Assembly: GCA_019057475.1 (NCBI GenBank)
Contig: DXJO01000038.1
Location: forward strand, 32,001 to 96,000
Origin: Candidatus Thorarchaeota archaeon
GTDB taxonomy: Archaea > Asgardarchaeota > Thorarchaeia > Thorarchaeales > Thorarchaeaceae
DNA: 64,000 bases
Direction: 5' to 3'
Position 1 is the stretch's first letter. Each line of letters starts with the position of its first letter. Below, piece by piece: positions 1,270 through 39,259 of the stretch. A program made the translations under genes and the position numbers. The notes under the pieces were generated by a model. It did not search any database. It was not told the origin of the DNA and saw only the letters and a list, made by a program, of their open reading frames with translations.

Positions 1270-1352
1270 AATAGAACTGAGAGTTCTTCACCTCACAATT
1301 GCTTGGTGTCCTTAGTGACAAGGAAGAAACTCGAAACCCAAAAAACAAGAAA

Positions 1353-1581
1353 GCCGCCCGAGTCTAAGCCCCGACAGGTGTTCGATGATTTCTCGTTCGG
1401 CGCTGCTGTCTTAGTCGCGTCGTTTTACACTCATCGTAAGCGGTTCGTCGCTCAGCTTTGCCTCTCGCCAATCAGCCCTTCATGCTGTCTTAGTCGCTTT
1501 GCCATCTTTCGATTGGGTTTCTGGCTTCGCTCAGCATGACCAGACTCAGCACGTCTGTCGTTAGCGTACTCCTCGGACGGC
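1353..1581 (-). ncRNA. Putative 229-nt structured non-coding RNA of unknown family
   Basis: 10-bp terminal helix GCCGUCCGAG/CUCGGGCGGC; TATA-like TTTATCTTTATTT at 1601-1613 (minus strand); U-rich tract immediately 3' (1337-1352); exact internal 15-nt repeat at 1404-1418 and 1483-1497. Confidence 0.6.
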
Positions 1582-1718
1582 TATCTAACTATTTAGACGC
1601 AAATAAAGATAAACTTTGTGAATGACACTGGAGCAGGATTGCTGAAAGCAATCAGGTTCATCTATGCATTGCTCTGTCCTGCAAATGGCAAGGCAATCAC
1701 GATAAGGAAGAGGGCAGC

Positions 1719-2462
1719 CTATGCTTCGAATAGGCCATTTGCTTTCAGGATCATGGCAAGGTAACGATGAGGTGGAACCTGTACGACACGCCCCAAATCA
1801 ACATTCAAGATGTAGATGGAGTCAAGTGCAGTCTGAGCAAGCAAGTCCATTGCGATTGATGGCGACGAGTAATAGGTATCACAGAGAGCCTTCAGTTGCT
1901 GCAGTTCTTTCTTTTTGCGATCCTCTGGAAAACGGAGAAGGATTTCAGGTACTTGTAGAACATGGTAACCGGGTGTGGCTAGGGCGAATCTTTGGCTATG
2001 ACCACTATACCGGGCTATCTTTGCAGCAATCCGTGCCTGTCTATAGCGTATGGGTGCGAGAGCAGCCTCTGGCGGTACGAATCCGGTTTCCACTTCTACC
2101 ACTAGTGTTTTCCTAGGCCCTGGCGTAGTATTGTCCCTTCTGTATGGCTTCTGGTCGCTACGACTAGGTGAGTCTGTCGAAAATGCTGATTCTTCTGAGC
2201 GAGAGCTCACAGCATATATGTCGGCAACTAGGGCGCCACCATCAAGCGGATGTTCCACAACTACTCGGTACCCATGCTCAATTAGATGCCAGGCACAAAG
2301 AACCTCCATTACACTGTGGTTGATCTTCACGAGGCGTCGCTTGTGAAGGCTCACCAGCCTATTCCGGACTTCAACCAGCTGCTGCATCACTTTTGGATTT
2401 GGCCTAGGCTTGATTTGCATAAGCAGACGGTCCAAATCTCGGGAGAACTTGTCTTTCGCCAC
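1719..2462 (-). CDS. Conserved archaeal hypothetical protein with PD-(D/E)xK nuclease-like motifs
   Basis: GY.V.VEH..LVADIYA...VVEVETG pattern; KINHSVME and ARIAAKIARYS blocks resemble a conserved archaeal family. Confidence 0.55.
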   Translation of the reverse strand: MAKDKFSRDLDRLLMQIKPRPNPKVMQQLVEVRNRLVSLHKRRLVKINHSVMEVLCAWHLIEHGYRVVVEHPLDGGALVADIYAVSSRSEESAFSTDSPSRSDQKPYRRDNTTPGPRKTLVVEVETGFVPPEAALAPIRYRQARIAAKIARYSGHSQRFALATPGYHVLQVPEILLRFPEDRKKKELQQLKALCDTYYSSPSIAMDLLAQTALDSIYILNVDLGRVVQVPPHRYLAMILKANGLFEA

Positions 2463-2885: not shown

Positions 2886-3209
2886 TCAGCTATTTGGACT
2901 CTCCTGAGGGGTAATTCTGTAGTAAAACACATTCTTGCCCAAGGTGAACTTAGCAATCAGTCCCTTGTTTTTGAGTCTAGTTAGGGTTCTTCGTATCTGA
3001 TTTGCCGGCTTCCCGACTAGGTTGGATATTTCACGTATGGTATGAGTCGCATCACAAAGAAGATAGACTATCTTCTGTTCTCCCGTCAAGGCATATCTCT
3101 CAGGCTGTGCAGGTGAAATATGCATCTGCAGTAGTGCTGACAGTAGACCCGATATCCTATCTAATATAACCAGCAGCTTATTCTCAAACTCATTGTTTCT
3201 CGATGTCAA
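2886..3209 (-). CDS. Small winged-helix DNA-binding protein (MarR/ArsR-like)
   Basis: TIREISNLVGKPANQIRRTLTRLKNKGLI HTH followed by a beta-wing (NVFYYRI). Confidence 0.7.
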   Translation of the reverse strand: MTSRNNEFENKLLVILDRISGLLSALLQMHISPAQPERYALTGEQKIVYLLCDATHTIREISNLVGKPANQIRRTLTRLKNKGLIAKFTLGKNVFYYRITPQESPNS

Positions 3210-3437
3210 CTTGCTACTTCTCCATAACTCTTAGATCCGTTGATGGCATCTTGAGTGGAATCTAACTGAAACGCCAAGATATGACACCAATAAGGGATAT
3301 TTATGCTTCCTTTGTTAGTCAGAACTAGGCCAATCGTTGTCTGTGTAATTAAGAAATTACTTGGCAGGCACAAACCAGCCGCCATACGATCATTTCAATT
3401 GACTGATTTACAATGCCTCTTAGAGATATGAACATCA

Positions 3438-4268
3438 TCATTTCTTCTTCTTGACGAGCCGGCCCTTCTCGTCCATTACTCCTTTTATGATTCCTATGAT
3501 TCGAAGCAGCATAATCACAGCTGCGTTTGCATTTTTCCTAATCGAAATCATCTTCTTCTTAGTGACGAAATCTACGACGCTATGCGCTGACTCATTTCCT
3601 TTCCTTCGAAGGCCCTTGATAGAAGCCAGATGGTTTTTCGTGAAACCATACTTCACATAGTCACCAGATATCTGCTCGAAGTTTAGAACTAAGGATTTTA
3701 GGGGGAGAAAACGGTTCGTACCATCATCAAAATACATCTTATGTTGATTCGTCGGTTCATACTTAAAGCGTAGAATATCAATTACTAGATTCTCCACCAG
3801 CTTTCTCAGCATGACACGTGCAGAGGAAAATGCTTCGTACTCAAAGCAGGTGTTAATCTCATCGATTAGCAAACTGTATACCTTGTCAACTCTATACACG
3901 TTTTCAATGTCTATGAAGTCAGGTTGCGAAGGCATCTTCCGGCTAGGTACACTAGTTTCCGCTTTTTCTCCGGGCAAATACATTTGTCCGGGAACTACCA
4001 TTGGGATTTCTTGGGCTAGATCCTTGAACTTCTGTGCAGAACGTTTCCTCATCACGAAGACCATAGTTTCTTTCTTGCATAATGGACATTCGACTCTGCA
4101 AATTCCTTTCTGTATATCCTCACCTGACCGACCTATTTTCATCTGGAATTTGCTGTACTCTTCCGGTTTGAAGTAGAATGCATACCACCCATGCTTGTCA
4201 AAAGCCAGTCGGAGATTCCTACCACAGTCTTCAGTTTGACAGACGATAGGAATGACTACTCCGCTCAT
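3438..4268 (-). CDS. Zn-ribbon + HEPN/DUF4145-like protein (putative RNase toxin)
   Basis: N-terminal CxxxxC...CPLC; C-terminal EINTCF..ARVMLRKLVE and RRKGNESAH (RxxxN/H HEPN-type motif). Confidence 0.6.
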   Translation of the reverse strand: MSGVVIPIVCQTEDCGRNLRLAFDKHGWYAFYFKPEEYSKFQMKIGRSGEDIQKGICRVECPLCKKETMVFVMRKRSAQKFKDLAQEIPMVVPGQMYLPGEKAETSVPSRKMPSQPDFIDIENVYRVDKVYSLLIDEINTCFEYEAFSSARVMLRKLVENLVIDILRFKYEPTNQHKMYFDDGTNRFLPLKSLVLNFEQISGDYVKYGFTKNHLASIKGLRRKGNESAHSVVDFVTKKKMISIRKNANAAVIMLLRIIGIIKGVMDEKGRLVKKKK

Positions 4269-4322
4269 GCAATATCACCACAGACAGACAACATCAGCTC
4301 GAATACAACTGCTCGTGTCCAT

Positions 4323-4755
4323 CTACACTGCGGAGTCCATCTTCTTTTCACACTTAAAAATGACTTCTCCTGCCATTTGAAGTGCCCAACAAATCCTATC
4401 AGGCCTGATCGCGTAGTTGTCACCTTCTTTCTCGAATCCGTCAGCGAGGCCTTCCTGTTTACTTGAAAGATATGTCGCAAGAGAGTCAGGATTAATCATC
4501 AATACATTCTGCAACTCATCTTTCGACATCCCTTGAGGATACTGTAACATCAATGCGCATACAATCTTCTGCTTTGCAGTAGCAGTTCCCTCGGGGAACG
4601 AGATTGCAGTCGCATATTGGTCCGATGCCAACATATGTCGCAACCTTGAGCTTAGTTAATCCAATCTCAATTTCTATCAATGCATCCGACCAATTTTCAA
4701 ATTCGCCGACTTGCAGTTCGTAGTTATTATAGAATGCTGAGAACGTCCGCTTCAT
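4323..4755 (-). pseudogene. Frameshifted member of the winged-helix paralog family
   Basis: ORF 4516-4755 matches the N-terminus of 5808-6302 (NWSDA motif), and ORF 4323-4643 in another frame matches its C-terminal wHTH; frame switch near 4620-4640. Confidence 0.7.
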
Positions 4756-5007
4756 TTTGACAGTACCTCCTACATCAGTGCACTACCCCATTTCCTCCAT
4801 TTTAATCTGGCGTATCGTGATGACTACATCATTAACTTGGGAATCCTTCGAGCAAGAAACATCATAGTGAATTGTGAAACGGTGGAGTCGCTTAACATAA
4901 TTACTACTCATGCAAAGATTAGTTGTTATAAACCCGGTCCACTAATGATGGGCGATAATCAAATATCGGTCTTCTTCATTTAATTAGCCTGACTCTGATA
5001 ATATAAC

Positions 5008-5562
5008 TTGGGTTCTCCTGCGAAGGTGATTAAGCGTATGGAAGAGATTGAAACTAAGGGGGTTATGCTGGAAAGAACTGTACGAAACACGATCGTGCGC
5101 ATCACTGCAAAGAACGGCGAATCTCTTGATGAAGCATACAATAGGCTCGCCGAAATATGCCAGAGTATTGAGGATACTGAAGCAGCCAAAGAGCGCGAGA
5201 AGTGGACTGAGGATATGCACCCAGAGGTGGAAGAAGCCACATCAAAAGTAGAGGCTCTCCTTGGTTTGGATGCCAATGAGAGAAGAGGAGTAAGCCTAAC
5301 AGATGAGTATCACATGGTTATACTGTCACTGCTAATGCATTTTGACGAGTGCAAGGGTTCCGTTTCCATCGCCAAGGAATGGAATATTAACAGCGGCAGA
5401 GTTTCACGAGTCTTCACAGCGTCGCGCAAGAAGCATGAGAAGTACAAGGGGCATTTCGAGAAATGCAAGATGGGAGGTTACCGTTTCACTAGAGAAGGCC
5501 TAAATCACGCATTGGAATATGGGGTGTCCGCGATATTGGGCGAAGAGAGTGATGTCGGCTAG
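5008..5562 (+). CDS. wHTH paralog family protein
   Basis: LDEAYNRLAEI N-module; HMVILSLL..SIAKEWNINSGRVSRVF..GGYRFTREGL wHTH. Confidence 0.7.
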   Translation: MGSPAKVIKRMEEIETKGVMLERTVRNTIVRITAKNGESLDEAYNRLAEICQSIEDTEAAKEREKWTEDMHPEVEEATSKVEALLGLDANERRGVSLTDEYHMVILSLLMHFDECKGSVSIAKEWNINSGRVSRVFTASRKKHEKYKGHFEKCKMGGYRFTREGLNHALEYGVSAILGEESDVG

Positions 5563-5807
5563 CAAGCTCTAGTTTCGTGAGTAGGTCATTTCCCGATTAG
5601 ATGTCGGAAGCAAATAGTTCGCGTTTCTTCATACCTAAATTGGAGTGTTAAGCATTCAATCTGGTTTCAGAGTCATGCTGCCTAGGATCCCCCATTGACA
5701 TCTCCTCTCATTCGATACCAACAAAGCTAATGCTGATGATTTGATGAAAAAGATTTAGTATAGGTTCGGTACTCTCAGCCAACGCGCAAGCAAAGGACCA
5801 TGGTAGT

Positions 5808-6302
5808 ATGACAAAGGAAGAGGAATCTATAGATGACAGTGGGGACTGGGTAGAGCTGCAGATCAAGCATGGCAATACCATACTGTCAGTGGGTGGACAC
5901 AACTGGTCTGACGCCATAGCAAAGGCAGCTCTTGGAAAGATGAAATGCAGAATTGCTGCAGTTGCAGGTTACGCAACAGAGTACAGTTCGGAGCTGAAAC
6001 AGTGGGTCATTGTGTTTGGAGAACCCATAGGCCAAATCAAGAGTCGAATTGCACTAGCGTTGCTGTTAGCTTTTCCAGAAAGGCTCTCAAGGGAGGAGTT
6101 GGTGAAGATGGTCGACATCAAGCCAAATCGGATTAGGGAGTATCTTACCAACACGAAAAAAGGCGTCAAACCCCACGTAGACGAAAACAAGAAGTCCGGC
6201 ATTATTCTGAATACCAAGGGCTACTCATGGGCGGTTGGGATTCTGGAATCAATTGAAGAAGCTAGATCCCACGAATCGAAAGGTGATGATATTGAGCAGT
6301 GA
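5808..6302 (+). CDS. wHTH paralog family protein
   Basis: SRIALALLLAFPERLSREELVKMVDIKPNRIREYL..IILNTKGYSW. Confidence 0.7.
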   Translation: MTKEEESIDDSGDWVELQIKHGNTILSVGGHNWSDAIAKAALGKMKCRIAAVAGYATEYSSELKQWVIVFGEPIGQIKSRIALALLLAFPERLSREELVKMVDIKPNRIREYLTNTKKGVKPHVDENKKSGIILNTKGYSWAVGILESIEEARSHESKGDDIEQ

Positions 6303-6765
6303 TCAGACAGATTTGAAGATTCGATTGAGTAGAACGATGAATAACATCCAGATTGAAGTCTGGCTAAGCAGCGAAGATGAGTTCAGAGAAGGCTATGCGC
6401 TTCTCAGACGACTCTGCGAAAGGGCAGAATTTGAGGAACTCAGACTAGACCTGGGTCAATTTAGAGTCAGAGATGATGAAGGACACAGAATAGCTGAGCA
6501 AGTTACTGAGGGTACGCACAGAGTAGCTCTATCACTCCTTGATAGTTGGCCAGATTCCAAGAGAGTCACCGACATTCAAGTTGAAACCGGACTATCACAG
6601 GGACACGTTTCGAATATACTCGAGGGCCGTCGAGGCGACGTGGGACACTGGTTCGAGAAGGAGAGAGATCTCTGGAAGCTATCACCCATTGGAGTGAGAG
6701 CCATTGTCGAAGAGGTCGTTCCAGCCCTGTTTGAGCAACAACGTTCTGGAGGGGGAACTCAATGA
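6235..6765 (+). CDS. wHTH paralog family protein (true start may be slightly downstream)
   Basis: HRVALSLLDSWP..DIQVETGLSQGHVSNIL..WKLSPIGV..VVP. Confidence 0.75.
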   Translation: MGFWNQLKKLDPTNRKVMILSSDQTDLKIRLSRTMNNIQIEVWLSSEDEFREGYALLRRLCERAEFEELRLDLGQFRVRDDEGHRIAEQVTEGTHRVALSLLDSWPDSKRVTDIQVETGLSQGHVSNILEGRRGDVGHWFEKERDLWKLSPIGVRAIVEEVVPALFEQQRSGGGTQ

Positions 6766-7286
6766 ACGCCAACGAAGAACAGGAGTTGACAGTCGAGATT
6801 GAGAAGTCTAGGAGCGGCACGAAGATTCGAGTTGTGGGAATATCCGCAAGTACGGACGAAGCGCAATTCGATCAAGCATACAAACTAGCGGATGAACTTT
6901 ATAGGAGAATCGAAACACTCGACCTTGAAATTGAATCGGAAAACAAAATCCAACAGGCCAAGAATCAAGTTTCTCATCTTTGGGTTCAAGAGGAAAACAA
7001 ATGGAAACTCTCCGCTTCTGTTACGGAGGCATCACACCGAATCGCACTGTCACTCCTTAGAAGCTATCCGAAGTGCATAACTCAAGCAGATGTAATCAGA
7101 GAAACAAACATAGCTCAGAAGACTGTCAGCAATCATCTAGGAGGACGAAAAAAGGAGGTTCGCATATATTTCTCGAAATGTGATGGCGGTTATCAACTAA
7201 GCCAAGATGGACTCAATTGGACCATCACGAAGGTCATTCCCAAGGCCATTGGCCAAGAGATGCCGAATGAAAGGAAAGAGGAATAG
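6762..7286 (+). CDS. wHTH paralog family protein
   Basis: FDQAYKLADELY N-module; HRIALSLLRSYP..VIRETNIAQKTVSNHL..GYQLSQDGLNW..VIP; ATGA overlap with the previous gene. Confidence 0.75.
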   Translation: MNANEEQELTVEIEKSRSGTKIRVVGISASTDEAQFDQAYKLADELYRRIETLDLEIESENKIQQAKNQVSHLWVQEENKWKLSASVTEASHRIALSLLRSYPKCITQADVIRETNIAQKTVSNHLGGRKKEVRIYFSKCDGGYQLSQDGLNWTITKVIPKAIGQEMPNERKEE

Positions 7287-7289
7287 TTA

Positions 7290-8264
7290 ATGACTGATTC
7301 CGACAAACAAACCTTCTTGATCAGGAAGAAATCAGCAGGACTGGAAATCGAAACACGAGTTGATGAGAAGAATCTCGATAATGCATACCTAAAATTGGAG
7401 GAATTATGGGCACATTTCAGTCAATTGGATGAAGAGTTGGAACCCAAACGAAAAATTCGCGATCTAGTGAAAGAATGTCAGAAGTACTGGGTTCGGAAAG
7501 ATGGGAAACGGTACCTAGCGAAGGACGTTGCTTCTGTATCTCATCGAGTCGGACTATCTGTGCTCGATGGGGGCAACAAAGGAAAGAGCCTGAAGGCCAT
7601 TGCCGACGAAACCGGGTTGTCTTCACCCCTTGCGCGGTATCACCTAACTGACGCCAAGGGAGCATCAGGGTGGTGCTTACAAGATGAAAAAAGACATTGG
7701 AAACTAACACCGGAGGGATTGGAGCACGTTACAAACATAGTAATTCCGTATTTACAGGGCCGTCACGGAAATGAACTCCACATGATTCTGAAATGGATGA
7801 ATAACAGAATATACAAGGGTCAGTTTGATAGCTGGATACTCGGCAAGGTCCAAGGAAAGGTGGACAAAACCAACTTCTTGGAATATGCCGTTGGATTGCT
7901 CCTATCAGCTTTAGGTTTCCTAGTATACCAAGTGGGCATGTATAACGATAGATTCGATATCGTTGCCTGTCCGCCAGATGGGTCTATCATGCTGGTATGT
8001 GACTGTACAACAGGTTCAGTCAGAAAGAAGTCATCGGGTCTCAGCATAGTCGTGGAAGAACTCAGGACCGAATTTCCAGAGATGCACGTAGAGGGTGTTG
8101 TTTTCACAACGGAAAGAATTAGTAAGACTGATCGAAAGGATTTGCTTAGCGACAAGATTGGGATTGTTGATGCAACTCAGATCAAGGAACTCCTCAAGCT
8201 AGCAAAATCCGATCGAAATCCCGAGCTGTTGTTTGATGTCATGAGGAAGAAGGAAACGCGATAG
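7290..8264 (+). CDS. wHTH paralog fused to a C-terminal Mrr-like restriction endonuclease domain
   Basis: LDNAYLKLEELW N-module and wHTH, then FLEYAVGLLLSALGF..RFDIVA..LVCDCT..GVVFT..IGIVD (PD-(D/E)xK-like fold, with a non-canonical third residue). Confidence 0.65.
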   Translation: MTDSDKQTFLIRKKSAGLEIETRVDEKNLDNAYLKLEELWAHFSQLDEELEPKRKIRDLVKECQKYWVRKDGKRYLAKDVASVSHRVGLSVLDGGNKGKSLKAIADETGLSSPLARYHLTDAKGASGWCLQDEKRHWKLTPEGLEHVTNIVIPYLQGRHGNELHMILKWMNNRIYKGQFDSWILGKVQGKVDKTNFLEYAVGLLLSALGFLVYQVGMYNDRFDIVACPPDGSIMLVCDCTTGSVRKKSSGLSIVVEELRTEFPEMHVEGVVFTTERISKTDRKDLLSDKIGIVDATQIKELLKLAKSDRNPELLFDVMRKKETR

Positions 8265-8319
8265 CTATTCTATGCCCAAACGCTCCATAAACAGCTTTGG
8301 TTACTCACTCTTGCATTGT

Positions 8320-9204
8320 TCACTCACTTGGGCGCAGGACAGAACTCATGTATTCCCTTACTCTCTCCGTTTCGAAGAAGTAGTACAATCCATCATCTGA
8401 TAAACGGAAACCTCTCTTGCATTTTGAGAAGTATTGAGAGTGGTCATGCTGTATCCCCGTTATGATTCGGGAAATGGATGACTTAACCAGACCAGTTTCC
8501 AAGGCGATTTCTTGCAGAGTCCTGCAATCGGGGTACGCTCTAAGGAGTGAAACCATAATCTTGTAAGGGGGCTTTGACTCTTCGGACTTTCTGCCAAGAG
8601 CTTCAAGCGAGCCATCATTTACATAGATAGACCAGTGACCGTCTTCCCTGCGCCAGAGATTAGTAGTCCCCTGTTTTGCACGCTTAATCATTTCATCGAA
8701 CTCTTCAGTTACATAGTCAATGGATTGAACCGGATGTTTCTCTGGAAGGGCATTGAGGACACGCAGAATCTGGTCCTGAACCTTCCGTGGGCTCTTCACA
8801 GATGTGGAATTCCCAAAAATTCTCTTGTATTCGATGACGTAGTAGCTTTTAGTGTCGAAAGGAAGTTCTCTTATCTTTTGAGTGAGTAGAATAAATGGCT
8901 TGCTCAAACCCCATGCAAGACCTAACTCTAGGAAGACATTCGGATTCGAGCCTGACAGGTCAGCAATAATCGCCCTAGATTCTTGTATGTTGGCACATAT
9001 CTTGCACCAAATCTCGGGTTTGCTCAAGTCGGAATCGGCTCTATGAACAGTCCAACCTGGCAAAGATTTCAGAACATCGTGAAATAGGCTCTGGGGCGCC
9101 TCCTTCTCTCGAAAGGGCATAAGCACAAACAGTTTGCGTGGATCATACTTCACGTTGACACCACACCGCTCGTAGTTCTTCGGGCATATGATTGGTATAC
9201 TCAT
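8320..9204 (-). CDS. Nucleoside 2-deoxyribosyltransferase/TIR-like domain fused to the family wHTH
   Basis: LFVLMPF..RAD..IQESRAIIADLSGSNPNVFLELGLAWGLSKPFILL; C-terminal SLLRAYP..EIALETGLVKSSISRI..GFRLSDDGL. Confidence 0.75.
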   Translation of the reverse strand: MSIPIICPKNYERCGVNVKYDPRKLFVLMPFREKEAPQSLFHDVLKSLPGWTVHRADSDLSKPEIWCKICANIQESRAIIADLSGSNPNVFLELGLAWGLSKPFILLTQKIRELPFDTKSYYVIEYKRIFGNSTSVKSPRKVQDQILRVLNALPEKHPVQSIDYVTEEFDEMIKRAKQGTTNLWRREDGHWSIYVNDGSLEALGRKSEESKPPYKIMVSLLRAYPDCRTLQEIALETGLVKSSISRIITGIQHDHSQYFSKCKRGFRLSDDGLYYFFETERVREYMSSVLRPSE

Positions 9205-9294
9205 AACTCTACACTTTCTCGGAAGAATCAGCTGCAGCTGCCCTGCTTCCCGTGCCCGATTCCCATGAATCGCATGTTAATTTGCCACTCAAGT

Positions 9295-12200
9295 TCAATG
9301 AGTGACACTTCCTAGAAGATGCTCAATCTTGGAGATGAGTCCATCATAGTTTTCTATCCTCTCCTTTGCTTCCTCATCACTTCCGAAGTACGACTCCACA
9401 ATCTCTTGAATCAGGCTTTCAGCATGGTCAAGTGTTCTAGCAACCCCGCTCTGAGGAGGTGTTGTCGCAAGGATCCAGTTGTACACCTGTTCCCCTGTCT
9501 TGTTGGATCTAGCACTAAGCTGAATTTCTGACTTGAACTTGAGCACAGTACAGACCAACTTCTCTTCGTCCATCTCAAGATAGCTGCCAGCCCGGATTGC
9601 CCTCAGGCCTAGTTCTCTCACGATTCGTCGACTCTCTCTGAACACCATGCCCTCTCTAGTCGTGGGGTCTGGAACGAACTCAAACGCGAACTCGCACCAT
9701 GCATTTCCGAGAAATGCACCTCCTGCCAACATCATTGCAGATATCTCTGAGTCGTCAAGTCCAGTCTTGGTCAGTCCAGATAGGCTGGTATCCTTGTCCC
9801 CATCCGAGAGCTCTACGCGCCAGCATGCACCATGACACTCCATTTCTCCGCTGGCTATGGGACATAGCTCCTCGTCGTGAGTCACAACCAGCGTTTGATG
9901 AGCGACCTCTCGGCTCGTGAGGTCCTCTGCGGTTGATGGCAGGGTCGTGCGAAAGCGGACGTACGGAGTCCTCTGCTCTACGTAGGGCCTCAGAATCTCC
10001 AGTGCATCATAATCAATGTCATCATAGGGGTTCCATGTCAGATAGGTTTCTGTGTCTTTCAGACTCTGCAGTGGAAGACCATCGACTATTGGACGTCGAA
10101 GCAGCGCGAGGAGCTCAGACGTGTGCTGGATGGACCAGCTCTCGATCAATTCGTTTCCATCAGCTCTATTGAACTCAATCGTGTAGTGGTCGTCATCCAC
10201 GTCCAGTGTGCATTTCGTCGAAACACAAAGGCTGAGTGACTCCGATATATCCTCAAGTACTCCTTGCACTCTCTTCCCTAGTGCCCGCGGAAATCGAAAC
10301 CATTCCGGCAGTAGTGGGAAGTCCTGTTCAGGCATTGTTGTGATCTGAAGTCCGCGGATGCCAGCAAGCGTTTCTCCTCTCCTCCTTATCGTGGTGAGCT
10401 TGCCCAGAGGCGTCCAATTCTCTTCATCGCGAAACCAGAAGTAATCTCCCCCGGCGGACCTATGCACGATTACGTCGTACGTGGCAGTTGCACCTACATG
10501 CTTAGACAAGCACAACGCAATCTCATCCTGACGGATTGCAGTCCAGCTTACTGTTTGCTTGGGCACAAATGGTTCGCATCCAATCCATACCCCAATCAGC
10601 ATTTTCCGACGGTCGTAGGGGTTCTCTATCGCCAAGCAATACTCCGGAGTTTCGTGCTCTTCTGACAGCACCAGAATCTGACCGTAGCTCACAGTACTCA
10701 GTTCAGGAACGTTCAGTGAGGTCATGGCTTTAGCCCGTTTCGCAAGTCCTGACCACACAGCTCTCAGATCGAGTCTAGGTGTGACCTCTTCTGACTCAGA
10801 GTTCATAAGGACGAATCCCATCTGCATGATTTGCCAAGACTTGAGAATCCTCCATAGCTCCGATAAATGCCTGTCAGCCAAAGTTGGGAACTCCCTAGTG
10901 AGCCCCAAGAGCAACAGGAAGAGGTAGTTGCCAAGAGAAACGGACAGGTACGGTCGCACACTGAGAAGATCCAGCAGCATCTCCCTGTCCTGTGCTCTCA
11001 GTCCCTCTACCAACCGGCTATCTCGAACCCACTGGAGCGTCGCCCATACTGGCTCAGAAACCGGACTCGTCTGCAAAAATCTCACGATGTCATCAAGCGC
11101 CTCGATGTGACCCTGTTTTCCATCGCCAATCGAAATCAATTCATCGAGCTCATCGAGGAACTGCGACCAGCTCGACCCGTCCTTCTCATGTCCCACTTGC
11201 CGAAGGATCCTGACGGCCTGACGAAGCCGCCTGAGTTCAAGCCGCGTGGCTCTCTCGATATCATGGCCAAAGCGCAGAGTGGCCTCTATGGGAGGTCTGT
11301 AGATACTCGCGCCCGTGCACTCTCGATTACTGTCCTTCCTGTAGGCACGTTGATGTGTGATGCTGTTCCTTGGCAGCAACGCAACACTCTCAACGAATGC
11401 TCTCCCGTGTCCCACTGTCTGCATTCTTGTCCTGTATTTCAGAAAAGGAGCTCCAGAAGGCCTGCTCTTCGAGCCATATTCAGACAGTGGCACGACATGA
11501 ATTTGCCGTCCCCCAGTATCATCCGCTTTCTGTACAATGCTCTCTGACAGATACTGCTTCAACTGAGGCACGAGCTCGATGGAGTCCCGAAAGAAATCAT
11601 CTTGCATCTCTGAATTGTGCATGACATCAGCAGACCGAATCACCGTTCGTCCTCTTTCTCCTTCTTGAGCGGATGAAACTGATGCTCGCCTTGGCTCATT
11701 CCAGAACCTTGGAGACCAGTTGTGAAGCGGTAGTACCTCTACCATGTTGAAAGAGATACCATCAATGTCCTGTCTTATGATGACTCTGAGGTCATCGAAC
11801 GCAGATGTCAACTGGCCTGATGCATACGGTCGCACGGGGAGATTCCATACGATCTCTGTGACGAAGCGGTTGAGTTCGGAACCTTGGAAGAACGGCTCCA
11901 TTGTCCTTCTCTGATAGGATGCTGAAGTACCTTCTGAGTTTCTAGGCCTGTCAAACCAGACTACCGTACAACCTGCCTCATTCAACTCAGCCGCGATTAT
12001 GCGTCGCAGCTCATAGAGTGCCGGCCGTAGTCGTTTTGGTGTGCAGTCATCCAGTACATCCCAGCCACTGACCACAACAACCCTACCATCTAGAGCATCC
12101 CATTCCTCTCCCACGAGCTTTGCTATCGACAGGTCCCCGATTCCTCTGAAGAGGAAGTCCTGTATAGCTGACGAGGCATCGCTGAACATGACTGCGCGGA

Positions 12201-14235
12201 AGAACTCGCGCATGTGGTCACTGCCTTGATCTGACCTGAGTCTAGTCCTAGCCAAAGACTCGGCTCCAAAGTCACCTGCCAAGTCCAACCACAGCATTTC
12301 AGAGTGATCATTCTCCTGTTGGAGGCCGTGGATGAGCTCAAGTCCGTGCCAGTACTTGGCTATCCAAGCAGCAGAGGGCCCTGATCTAGACGCGGAGTTC
12401 ACACTCAGATAGAGAATGAAGCGGCCTCTCGCCTTACCATTCTCCTCTAGTGGGCTGCGTTGCTCAACACCCCACAAAGGCCAGCCCTTTTTCCCAATCT
12501 GTTTCAACTGGTCAGCAGCTATGCCATGCACGATGATAGCAAGTTTCAGCCAATCCCGGGTTCCGTCATTCAAGACAACTCCCACTGGTCTGCTGAGATG
12601 CTCTTTGAGAAGGACTGAGGCGTTCTCACACAGAGCTCGCGTGAGTCGCCATAGTCTGGGACGTACCACAGAGGAGTCCTGCGAAGTGTCAAGGACCACA
12701 GTACCGGTCAGAGGCCGCACCACTGAACGGTCCTCTGTGATTCTCACATACTCCGTAGCAAGACCTTCGGCATAGGCCTCGAGCTGTTTCATGCCGTACC
12801 CCGTTGGCGTTCCGGCAACAGACGCATTCCACTCGGCGTTCGTGAGCCCGCGCTTTCTGAGAACAAACTTGGGAATAACCTTCTGTCCGTGTTTCTTGGA
12901 ATCCTTCTTCTCAGCTTTAATCTCCCAATTGAAAGCAGTCTTGCTCTTGATGTCAAAGACAGCCACGGGTATCCATACGGTCAGTTTGCCCGGCACTCTC
13001 GGGTTCTGAATCACATGACGTCTGAACATCACGAGATCCGCCCGCCCCTTCCCTAGGGAGGTTTCCACAGGGATTTCTGCTGCAAGGAGCCACTGGTCAC
13101 CCTCCTCCACCCAACGGTCACCGTTGAAGACCACCGACTCCAAGTCGTATGGCTGGACGAGTCCGTTAGTCATCAACCTGTGCCATCTGATGCCGTGCCA
13201 TCTCGCCCTCCGCATAACTTCCTTTTGTAGCCACTCACCGTCCTCATCCCGAAGGATGCCACGTTCGCATAGGTCCTTGAGGAAGTCCGCCCAGGCCTGA
13301 CGAATCTCACTCTCGGAGGCTTCCTCTTCCGGATACCTCAACTGCGTGACCTGGTCCAGGAAGAATGAAAGGTCCCACCTAGCCCTCGACTCCTCAATGG
13401 ACTGTGTCAGTGATGGCGCCCGCCCATAGTGTGTCCCGTAAAACGCCTCGATCTCCTGGACTATCTCTCGGAGAATCCAGTTCGCGTCAAGCTGTTCACT
13501 ATCCCTCCGCCCACTTCTTCTCGAACGCTTGAACCCCCGCTTCCCGCTCTCCTTCGAGGTGTAGAGATACTCGAGGAACGGTGACAGCCGCCATATCAGC
13601 AGGCCAACATACCTGCGCGCGTTGTTCATCGGCACGTCGTTGATGAAGCACTTACGACACAGTTCGAAGATGTGGGCTCTCAGCATGTCCCCGAAGTCCA
13701 GCTCCGCAAGGACAGTGTGAGCCACCTCAACCCATGGATAGTCGCTCCCGCCTTCGTACCCTGCAATCCACCTCTTGCCGCGTCGACCTGCTGTCTTTGG
13801 CTCTGGAAACGGAAACCTTGTCACGACCCAGTTCCTCAGTTGTGCGCCAGCCATGTTCAGTAGTCTGTTGAGCGGCCCAATCCTCCCCTTCCTCTCGTTC
13901 TGTATCCGCTTGTACTCCCTGTTGCCGTAGCGCGCGGTGGTTTCCCAGATCATCTTGTTGAAGTTGCGACGCATGTGTTTCTCGACGTTTGTAATGTGAG
14001 AAAAGTCGGGTTTGCCACCGCGTCTGCTCGCGCGCCACTTGCTCAGTGCTTCGGTCCACTGCCTTTGAGTGCTGGCATAGACATCCTCGATGCTCTTGAT
14101 CGTGCGCTCGCGGAAGAGGTCACGCAGTGCCGAAAGACCGTTGAGGTACGCGCGAGCTATGGCCTGCGCTGGGTCGTGGGGGTATGGCCTCTGTTCACTC
14201 TCCTTGAGGTTATCCATCGCGGGCACGCGTATCAC
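9295..14235 (-). CDS. 1646-aa giant hypothetical protein with a PD-(D/E)xK (RecB-like) nuclease motif
   Basis: Long uninterrupted ORF; EIPV..GRADLV..VFDIKSK..QLEAYA motif. Confidence 0.7.
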   Translation of the reverse strand: MIRVPAMDNLKESEQRPYPHDPAQAIARAYLNGLSALRDLFRERTIKSIEDVYASTQRQWTEALSKWRASRRGGKPDFSHITNVEKHMRRNFNKMIWETTARYGNREYKRIQNERKGRIGPLNRLLNMAGAQLRNWVVTRFPFPEPKTAGRRGKRWIAGYEGGSDYPWVEVAHTVLAELDFGDMLRAHIFELCRKCFINDVPMNNARRYVGLLIWRLSPFLEYLYTSKESGKRGFKRSRRSGRRDSEQLDANWILREIVQEIEAFYGTHYGRAPSLTQSIEESRARWDLSFFLDQVTQLRYPEEEASESEIRQAWADFLKDLCERGILRDEDGEWLQKEVMRRARWHGIRWHRLMTNGLVQPYDLESVVFNGDRWVEEGDQWLLAAEIPVETSLGKGRADLVMFRRHVIQNPRVPGKLTVWIPVAVFDIKSKTAFNWEIKAEKKDSKKHGQKVIPKFVLRKRGLTNAEWNASVAGTPTGYGMKQLEAYAEGLATEYVRITEDRSVVRPLTGTVVLDTSQDSSVVRPRLWRLTRALCENASVLLKEHLSRPVGVVLNDGTRDWLKLAIIVHGIAADQLKQIGKKGWPLWGVEQRSPLEENGKARGRFILYLSVNSASRSGPSAAWIAKYWHGLELIHGLQQENDHSEMLWLDLAGDFGAESLARTRLRSDQGSDHMREFFRAVMFSDASSAIQDFLFRGIGDLSIAKLVGEEWDALDGRVVVVSGWDVLDDCTPKRLRPALYELRRIIAAELNEAGCTVVWFDRPRNSEGTSASYQRRTMEPFFQGSELNRFVTEIVWNLPVRPYASGQLTSAFDDLRVIIRQDIDGISFNMVEVLPLHNWSPRFWNEPRRASVSSAQEGERGRTVIRSADVMHNSEMQDDFFRDSIELVPQLKQYLSESIVQKADDTGGRQIHVVPLSEYGSKSRPSGAPFLKYRTRMQTVGHGRAFVESVALLPRNSITHQRAYRKDSNRECTGASIYRPPIEATLRFGHDIERATRLELRRLRQAVRILRQVGHEKDGSSWSQFLDELDELISIGDGKQGHIEALDDIVRFLQTSPVSEPVWATLQWVRDSRLVEGLRAQDREMLLDLLSVRPYLSVSLGNYLFLLLLGLTREFPTLADRHLSELWRILKSWQIMQMGFVLMNSESEEVTPRLDLRAVWSGLAKRAKAMTSLNVPELSTVSYGQILVLSEEHETPEYCLAIENPYDRRKMLIGVWIGCEPFVPKQTVSWTAIRQDEIALCLSKHVGATATYDVIVHRSAGGDYFWFRDEENWTPLGKLTTIRRRGETLAGIRGLQITTMPEQDFPLLPEWFRFPRALGKRVQGVLEDISESLSLCVSTKCTLDVDDDHYTIEFNRADGNELIESWSIQHTSELLALLRRPIVDGLPLQSLKDTETYLTWNPYDDIDYDALEILRPYVEQRTPYVRFRTTLPSTAEDLTSREVAHQTLVVTHDEELCPIASGEMECHGACWRVELSDGDKDTSLSGLTKTGLDDSEISAMMLAGGAFLGNAWCEFAFEFVPDPTTREGMVFRESRRIVRELGLRAIRAGSYLEMDEEKLVCTVLKFKSEIQLSARSNKTGEQVYNWILATTPPQSGVARTLDHAESLIQEIVESYFGSDEEAKERIENYDGLISKIEHLLGSVTH

Positions 14236-25517: not shown

Positions 25518-25556
25518 TTCAATTGCCTTCCTTTGCAGTGATTAAATTCGCTTTGT

Positions 25557-25608
25557 TTGTGGTTCAGCCCTAATGGGCCACATCCCTTGCGGACGTATCC
25601 GCCAACAC
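25557..25608 (-). promoter_or_regulatory. Structured 5' leader of rpl15e (K-turn-like)
   Basis: GCGGA-UACG-UCCGC hairpin, then AGGGAUGUG-GCCC-auua-GGGC-UGAACCACAA. Confidence 0.5.
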
Positions 25609-39145: not shown

Positions 39146-39259
39146 TGGTAGCGGGTGAATGATTCGAACATTCGATCTCAGGGTTCCTCAAATGCCCGTT
39201 TCTTAAAAAACAGGCTTAATATGAGCCCTGCGGGATAGGCCTGGCTTCCCCAACCCGCT
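39146..39259 (-). tRNA. Initiator tRNA-Met(CAU) with a 35-nt intron at 37/38 (39185-39219), CCA encoded
   Basis: AGCGGGU/ACCCGCU acceptor stem with A1-U72; three G-C pairs in the anticodon stem CAGGG/CCCUG; CUCAUA loop; T-arm GAAUG-UUCGAAU-CAUUC; bulge-helix-bulge CUCA/UGAG. Confidence 0.95.

What the first reader, a model, noticed from the sequence alone, without database searches (positions are those of the whole stretch)
1337..1613. Unannotated 229-nt RNA gene with two repeated internal domains
Seen in sequence (minus strand): TATA-like box ~25 nt upstream; 10-bp closing helix; a second helix CGACAG/CUGUCG; oligo-U terminator directly after. Inside are two copies of the module GCUGAGCGA-[variable insert]-GCGACUAAGACAGCA, whose ends pair (CAUGCUG/CAGCAUG in the first), and GGCAAAGC occurs twice. 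It lacks the SRP helix-8 motif and the canonical RNase P GAGGAAAGUCC, although it ends in GGCUUA before the closing helix. Inference: a novel tandem-domain ncRNA (aptamer, ribozyme or protein-binding scaffold), or a highly diverged known RNA.
Basis: partly seen in the sequence, partly recalled or inferred. Interest (0 to 1): 0.7.

Follow-up and report, generated by a model that had tools for sequence, protein, structure and literature searches.

The report
Predicted circular RNA with nuclease-like partner
This is a real, undescribed RNA gene of Thorarchaeota (Asgard archaea) whose ends carry the tRNA-splicing signal, so it is probably cut out and sealed into a 202-base ring, and across several archaeal groups such RNAs sit beside the same uncharacterised nuclease-like protein, which points to a new RNA-protein partnership.

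Summary
The 229-nt RNA gene (window 1581-1353, minus strand) is real: no Rfam hit, and the RNase P and SRP genes lie elsewhere. 64 homologues in 48 of 86 Thorarchaeaceae genomes covary strongly and share a BRE/TATA box and a U-tract. (1) Each repeated arm closes a covarying pseudoknot. (2) The base of the RNA is a canonical bulge-helix-bulge. EndA cleavage and RtcB ligation would give a 202-nt circle whose junction forms a C(UUAG)G tetraloop. (3) The RNA travels with the upstream 247-aa PD-(D/E)XK-fold gene. All 21 full-length copies beside that gene keep the exact motif; 3 of 39 other copies do. Bathyarchaeia carry the same motif with one or two modules or other cargo. A second, unrelated RNA family beside the same gene also has a bulge-helix-bulge, giving a GNRA junction. 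Best reading: a stand-alone circular RNA that binds and probably regulates this protein. Circularisation, expression and binding are inferred, not shown. Energy models favour a non-BHB pairing of the precursor by 5 kcal/mol.

The parts
1606..1619 (-). Archaeal promoter: purine-rich BRE and T/A-rich TATA-like box
   Evidence: Sequence; position-specific profile over 60 homologues. Not shown by transcript data.
1353..1581 (-). 229-nt precursor RNA gene
1572..1581 (-). P1 5' strand (outer helix h; pairs 1362-1353)
   Evidence: 99% of cells paired, 6 of 10 pairs with double changes
1563..1571 (-). BHB 5' half: 4-bp helix strand GAGU (1571-1568), 3-nt bulge ACG (1567-1565), h' CU (1564-1563); predicted cut between 1566 and 1565
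   Evidence: cut rule checked on the host's tRNA introns
1363..1371 (-). BHB 3' half: h' GG (1371-1370), helix strand GCUU (1369-1366), 3-nt bulge AGA (1365-1363); predicted cut between 1364 and 1363
1364..1565 (-). Predicted mature 202-nt covalently closed circle; the junction forms a C(UUAG)G-capped hairpin
   Evidence: Inference; null rate 0.9%
1555..1560 (-). P2 5' strand (pairs 1377-1372)
   Evidence: 97% paired, all 6 pairs with double changes
1468..1545 (-). Module A: long hairpin with a 1x8 A-rich internal loop; apical loop 1516-1511 pairs with 1473-1468 (pseudoknot 1)
   Evidence: The pseudoknot pairs were not in the model yet rank among the top covarying columns, 100% paired; 91% paired over six pairs
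1383..1462 (-). Module B: same fold; apical loop 1436-1431 pairs with 1388-1383 (pseudoknot 2)
   Evidence: Best helix score 6.1 with own flank vs 5.4 with swapped partners, maximum 5.7; 77% paired despite register shifts
1340..1352 (-). U-rich archaeal terminator-like tract
   Evidence: Sequence; conserved U profile
1719..2462 (-). Partner gene: 247-aa uncharacterised protein with a PD-(D/E)XK (restriction-endonuclease-like) fold; invariant E70, D81, E123, E125, R144, K148, R151, Y152
   Evidence: No Pfam/NCBIfam/PADLOC family; model pLDDT 89; best match MmcB-family 3dnx Z 10.3, rmsd 2.8, 106 aligned; linkage

Best explanation
A stand-alone gene for a circular non-coding RNA that works with the protein encoded next to it. 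Step 1 (shown by covariation and flanks): a 229-nt precursor is made from its own promoter and folds into a closing stem and two pseudoknotted arms. Step 2 (inferred, about 0.8): the host tRNA splicing endonuclease EndA cuts the basal bulge-helix-bulge after the second base of each bulge, and RtcB seals a 202-nt circle; the basal stem slips into a second register capped by a C(UUAG)G tetraloop. Step 3 (inferred, about 0.7): the PD-(D/E)XK-fold protein binds this capped basal stem, the only part kept across all RNA variants. Step 4 (least certain, about 0.35): the exonuclease-proof circle acts as a long-lived inhibitor or decoy that holds the putative nuclease in check, in the manner of an RNA antitoxin, while the interchangeable cargo (one or two pseudoknot modules, other junctions, or a plain rod) adds compaction or lineage-specific contacts. 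The confidence given is for steps 1-3 together.
For: Canonical hBHBh' in 21/21 gene-adjacent Thorarchaeaceae copies, 28/30 Thermoproteota copies of the same class, and 17/17 copies of a sequence-unrelated family beside the same gene; also in 3/3 copies from a second Asgard family. The central helix varies only in ways that keep pairing (G-U/A-U and C-G/U-G, 99% paired) and changes on both strands in the second family. The predicted junction makes C(UUAG)G, C(UUUG)G or C(UUCG)G in class I and GNRA in class II, with stems up to 9 bp; random BHB geometries do so 0.9% of the time (58/6575). Bulge bases kept in the circle are nearly invariant while the discarded middle base of the 5' bulge varies. 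A GNRA-capped BHB junction is documented for circular 23S rRNA (PMC12918454). The genome has EndA (two subunits) and RtcB, and host tRNA introns fit the cut rule. Partner link: exact motif in 21/21 adjacent vs 3/39 other copies; tandem, divergent and convergent layouts all occur; all 21 of 150 Thermoproteota genomes with the RNA have the protein, 19 adjacent.
Against: No expression, junction-read or binding data. ViennaRNA puts the BHB conformer 5.0 kcal/mol above the product-like register in this precursor (family medians 3.8-7.6), whereas four host tRNA BHBs fold as such (helix probability 0.58-1.0 for the arm alone). About 28 of 40 non-adjacent copies have lost the BHB yet keep both modules, so the cargo can persist without circularisation or the protein. 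The protein occurs in Nitrosopumilus-like and Sulfolobales genomes where neither model found an RNA. Linkage counts come from related genomes and are not independent, and model R3 was trained on many of the loci it was tested on. Nothing tests inhibition; the canonical Lys of the nuclease motif is replaced (E-x-E).
Confidence: 0.58

Rival explanations
1. The RNA stays linear. The basal motif is a 6x5 internal loop (RAGYAN opposite UUAGA) recognised by the neighbouring protein, and the BHB geometry is incidental. It would work like a Y RNA: a conserved protein-binding stem with variable cargo.
For: This register is the predicted minimum-energy fold; the motif tracks the protein gene; BHB-less copies are still conserved.
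Against: It does not explain why an unrelated family beside the same gene has the same 4-bp/3-nt geometry with compensatory changes, nor the tetraloops that appear only after ligation.
Confidence: 0.17
2. The RNA is circularised, but the protein serves the RNA: it is a maturation factor (a chaperone or EndA accessory that captures the unfavourable BHB conformer, or a nuclease that reopens the circle). The function then lies in the pseudoknot modules, for example as ligand-binding domains, since a bent hairpin whose loop pairs at its base is also the topology of c-di-GMP-II and SAM-I aptamers (own knowledge).
For: The BHB is metastable in silico. The fold search lists tRNA-endonuclease subunits weakly (Z 4.9-5.4). 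Complex prediction with the host EndA catalytic subunit gave weak support: 0.42 vs best control 0.08; the mark was reached by 58 of 80 solved and 2 of 110 mismatched pairs, but at 0.60 or under by only 7 of the 80 and by both mismatches; runs agree in 0% of contacts, partner pLDDT at least 76. Both proteins share a fold, so likeness may explain it.
Against: The cargo is not conserved across the family (plain rods of 77-140 nt exist), which fits a protein-centred function better. No downstream gene to regulate. The EndA Tyr-His-Lys triad is not at the equivalent positions (own knowledge of EndA).
Confidence: 0.17
3. A domesticated selfish or viroid-like circular RNA, or an RNA-guided nuclease module.
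For: Patchy presence, paralogues in 16 genomes, four dispersed copies in one complete genome, rod-like forms.
Against: No variable guide segment, no transposase or repeat ends; single chromosomal protein gene in 140/301 Thermoproteota; almost nothing in viral contigs; the protein tree follows lineages.
Confidence: 0.05
4. A diverged or permuted known RNA (RNase P, SRP, C/D or H/ACA guide, ribozyme).
For: A GGCUUA word before the closing helix; permuted BHB-flanked SRP genes exist (PMC4731332).
Against: No Rfam match even at E 10; RNase P and SRP genes present elsewhere; CUGA and ACA words are not conserved; the junction lies at the tip of the closing stem, so permutation would not hide an internal match.
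Confidence: 0.03

Closest known systems
Circular, permuted SRP RNA of Thermoproteus (PMC4731332)
   Same: Own gene whose leader and trailer form a BHB; EndA cleavage and ligation create a loop needed in the mature RNA; not a tRNA or rRNA.
   Different: No SRP helix 6/8 motifs, and a separate SRP gene exists; the cargo is a double pseudoknot; linked to a different protein.
BHB-derived circles: tRNA introns, pre-16S/23S rRNA, circular 23S rRNA capped by GNRA (PMC12918454, PMC7714728, PMC12558985)
   Same: Same splice geometry; tetraloop cap at the junction.
   Different: There the circle is a by-product or intermediate of another RNA; here the rejoined flanks give only a 27-nt hairpin, so the circle is the product.
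Type III toxin-antitoxin systems (ToxIN) and other nuclease-ncRNA pairs (own knowledge)
   Same: A nuclease-fold gene beside a pseudoknotted RNA in tandem units.
   Different: Units are about 75-80 nt, inside a closed stem, processed by a host splicing motif rather than by the toxin; PD-(D/E)XK fold, not ToxN; not in PADLOC.
Y RNA-Ro60 (own knowledge)
   Same: Ends pair into a conserved bulged stem; variable internal cargo.
   Different: No TROVE gene found in the genome; different stem motif; BHB.
PhoH2-associated structured RNAs (bioRxiv 10.64898/2026.10.21.760802)
   Same: One nuclease-bearing protein family with lineage-specific, unrelated RNA neighbours of unknown function.
   Different: Bacterial, PIN-PhoH protein, no BHB reported.
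MmcB family (PF06319, PDB 3dnx) and XisH
   Same: Closest folds to the partner protein (Z 10.3 and 9.3).
   Different: 15-17% identity, E-x-E instead of E-x-K, no Pfam hit; no RNA partner known to me.

Membership tests
Archaeal BHB (EndA) substrates | 4-bp helix with a 3-nt bulge 3' of each strand, flanked by helices h and h' | tested here: met
   (h 10 bp, h' 2 bp); definition from PMC6379350
Archaeal BHB (EndA) substrates | BHB is the favoured fold of the precursor | tested here: inconclusive
   5.0 kcal/mol above the alternative register; host tRNA controls mostly favour the BHB
Archaeal BHB (EndA) substrates | EndA and RtcB encoded by the host | tested here: met
Archaeal BHB (EndA) substrates | Cleavage and circular junction observed | not testable with these tools
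   Needs RNA-seq or an assay
RNase P RNA (RF00373) | CR-I/CR-V P4 pseudoknot with P2, P3, P5; model match | tested here: not met
   true gene at C42, 171.9 bits
SRP RNA (RF01857) | Helix 8 SRP54 site, Alu domain | tested here: not met
   gene at C54, 95 bits
Y RNA | Ro60/TROVE gene in the genome | tested here: not met
   0 hits in a 96% complete genome, control positive
C/D or H/ACA guide RNA | Conserved C/D boxes, or K-turn, pocket and ACA | tested here: not met
   Words not conserved in the alignment; no Rfam hit
Known riboswitches and self-cleaving ribozymes | Rfam model match; regulated downstream gene | tested here: not met
   terminator and variable neighbours downstream
Type III toxin-antitoxin | ToxN/CptN/TenpN toxin after short tandem repeats | tested here: not met
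   No Pfam or PADLOC family; the fold is PD-(D/E)XK
Type III toxin-antitoxin | Protein toxic, neutralised by the RNA | not testable with these tools
   Needs an expression assay
PD-(D/E)XK nuclease superfamily (partner protein) | Core alpha/beta fold with acidic residues on strands 2 and 3 | tested here: met
   (D81, E123 invariant)
PD-(D/E)XK nuclease superfamily (partner protein) | Catalytic Lys two residues after the Glu | tested here: inconclusive
   Glu125 instead (as in BamHI-type sites, own knowledge); invariant K148 nearby in sequence

The most novel reading that the evidence does not exclude
An ancient TACK-Asgard system in which a dedicated gene makes a covalently closed circular RNA through the tRNA splicing machinery, and the circle controls a conserved nuclease through its splice-junction hairpin, so that nuclease activity is coupled to splicing capacity, with interchangeable RNA cargo (including a new pseudoknot module) tuning it in each lineage.
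Probability: 0.3. Interest if true: 0.92.

Novelty: categorically new. Interest (0 to 1): 0.8.

Why it matters
Known BHB-made archaeal circles are by-products or forms of tRNA, rRNA and SRP RNA. A gene whose only plausible product is the circle, kept with one partner protein across Thorarchaeia, Bathyarchaeia and Nitrososphaeria, would add a new job for the tRNA splicing machinery and a first protein partner for a dedicated prokaryotic circular RNA. It also gives a handle on a protein present in nearly half of the Thermoproteota genomes searched that has no annotation. The prediction is exact (junction 1364 to 1565) and can be checked in existing sediment metatranscriptomes; a class II copy lies in a single-contig Nitrosocaldus-like genome (L297). 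The biogenesis route is known; the RNA families and the pairing are what I could not find described in Rfam 15 or the papers searched.

Tried and rejected
Rfam at gathering and E-value thresholds on the window and on Thermoproteota homologues: nothing. A helix pairing 1471-1467 with 1386-1382, which I first modelled, was replaced by two pseudoknots after mutual-information analysis. K-turn, sarcin-ricin and interdigitated T-loop readings of the loops do not fit the pairing registers. A tRNA-linked location: not seen. Viral occurrence: none for the RNA pattern, one weak protein hit. Recent transfer from Bathyarchaeia: Asgard proteins form their own clade (support 98, quick tree), so this is not claimed. 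RNA partners in Nitrosopumilus-like, Sulfolobus and Sulfurisphaera genomes: not found with R2, R3 or a pattern, which does not show absence. The R3 search of Asgard genomes missed the window's own copy and is uninformative. The sigma-70 and hairpin-terminator scan does not apply to archaea. Literature searches found no description of the family. No common neighbour for the orphan copies.

Full report
Observation. It lies in a 450-nt gap between a glycosyltransferase gene (19-1269, +) and a 247-aa ORF (1719-2462, -). Rfam gives nothing. The genome has its own RNase P and SRP genes elsewhere. Homologues of the neighbouring protein are named Thorarchaeota.

Conservation. BLAST found 15 genomes; a covariance model found 64 copies in 48 of 86 family genomes, 16 with two copies. 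On the alignment, 87% of cells pair, 58 of 67 pairs have double changes, no shuffle reaches the score and slid registers collapse. A BRE/TATA profile upstream and a U-tract downstream are shared. So this is an independent structured RNA gene; transcription itself is inferred.

The repeated module. Each arm is a long hairpin with a single A opposite an 8-nt A-rich loop. Mutual information, with no such pairs in the model, ranked three pairs between the apical loop of arm A and the bases just 3' of the arm among the strongest, 100% paired. The same holds for arm B. Each arm is therefore a pseudoknot in which the hairpin bends back on itself, with the 1x8 loop as the likely hinge (inference). Bathyarchaeia RNAs carry the same module once (about 135 nt) or twice (about 229 nt), so the duplication is real, but exact sequence identity of the repeats is local to this genus.

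The partner gene. The upstream ORF has no family in Pfam, NCBIfam or PADLOC. Its model (pLDDT 89) matches PD-(D/E)XK proteins, best MmcB 3dnx at Z 10.3, with invariant D81, E123, E125, R144, K148 and R151 that are kept as far as Sulfolobales. It is found in 28 of 86 family genomes, 27 of 301 Asgard genomes and 140 of 301 Thermoproteota genomes. Twenty-one full-length RNA copies lie next to it in tandem, divergent or convergent layout, and all keep the exact basal motif, against 3 of 39 others, two of these in genomes with the gene elsewhere. Related genomes are not independent, so the test statistic overstates, but linkage through rearrangements argues against a simple UTR element. A second Asgard family shows the pair in 3 of 3 loci. 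In Thermoproteota the same basal motif closes several unrelated cargos, down to plain rods; all 21 of 150 genomes with such an RNA have the protein and 19 have them adjacent (partly circular because of training). Nitrosocaldus, Terraquivivens and some Bathyarchaeia have instead a second, sequence-unrelated RNA family beside the gene, also absent from Rfam.

The basal motif is a splice signal. It reads as outer helix, 4-bp helix, and a 3-nt bulge 3' of each strand: the bulge-helix-bulge cut by EndA (PMC6379350). It is present in 21/21 adjacent copies, 28/30 Thermoproteota class I copies and 17/17 class II copies. The host's own tRNA introns fit cutting after the second bulge base, and EndA and RtcB are encoded. 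Applying the rule gives a 202-nt circle (1565-1364) and a 27-nt flank hairpin. The junction forms C(UUAG)G, C(UUUG)G or C(UUCG)G in class I and a GNRA loop in class II, on stems of 3-9 bp, features that cannot exist in the linear form. Random BHB geometries in this genome give such loops in 0.9% of cases. A GNRA-capped junction is known for circular 23S rRNA (PMC12918454), and loop restoration by circularisation for Thermoproteus SRP RNA (PMC4731332). Among non-adjacent copies about 12 of 40 keep the BHB, mostly having lost the G bases that make the tetraloop, and the rest have lost it. This is the basis for proposing that the protein reads the junction hairpin.

What speaks against. The BHB geometry alone is weak: 35 chance matches occur in the genome. 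Energy models prefer the product-like register in the precursor by 5 kcal/mol, unlike most host tRNA introns, so EndA or a helper must capture a minor conformer, or the RNA stays linear. Orphan copies keep their modules without BHB or protein. Many genomes with the protein show no RNA with my models. A predicted complex of the protein with EndA was only weakly supported (0.42 vs 0.08, runs disagree).

Verdict. Shown: a conserved, unannotated RNA gene with two pseudoknotted modules, a canonical BHB and tight linkage to one nuclease-fold gene. Inferred: circularisation (0.8), binding to the protein (0.7), inhibition of a nuclease (0.35). It is not a member of any RNA family tested. The route of biogenesis is known; the families and the pairing were not found in Rfam or in the papers searched.

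Noticed in passing
L089:3215-3436, L104:3249-3468, L128:3176-3388, L108:3154-3380, L157:3140-3373, L137:3149-3438, L297:1501-1721: A second unannotated 207-290-nt RNA family beside the same gene in Nitrosocaldus, Terraquivivens and some Bathyarchaeia: three hairpins, BHB, predicted GNRA junction; no Rfam hit.
   Followed up: partly
L286, L289, L290, L291 (genome G465): One complete Thermoproteota genome has four dispersed copies of the class I RNA, all with intact BHB, none beside its single protein gene.
   Followed up: partly
L293:1501-1667 and L287:1501-1604: Class I copies whose cargo is a nearly perfect double-stranded rod (predicted circles of 140 and 77 nt).
   Followed up: partly
   Followed up: no
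window 39146-39259 (-): tRNA-Met(CAT) with a 35-nt intron and canonical BHB, missed by the scan without intron search.
   Followed up: yes
window 25556-25602 (-): Match to the eL15-Euryarchaeota ribosomal protein leader (RF03144, 53 bits) in an Asgard genome.
   Followed up: no
window 2886-14235: A run of small winged-helix-like ORFs, a TIR-like PADLOC effector hit (8320-9204) and a 1646-aa ORF with a nuclease-like motif just upstream of the partner gene; looks like a variable or defence island.
   Followed up: no
G000:C54:119886-120193: The host SRP RNA scores 95 bits, just under the Rfam cut-off of 96.5, so standard annotation would miss it.
   Followed up: no
L084, L090, L101, L103, L113, L129, L132, L154 and L013: An ATP-dependent DNA ligase gene flanks the pair in a Bathyarchaeia clade and one Thorarchaeote; DUF123 and helicase-like neighbours occur elsewhere, a weak hint of DNA repair.
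   Followed up: partly
L157:2023-2333: An SRP RNA gene lies directly upstream of the partner gene, with the class II RNA downstream.
   Followed up: no
L181:1994-2219 and 3604-3828 (G017): Two diverged copies 1.6 kb apart, without BHB, in a 98% complete genome where the protein was not found.
   Followed up: no
G000:C54:106528-106620: ARAGORN calls a tRNA with anticodon TTA, probably a misplaced intron boundary.
   Followed up: no
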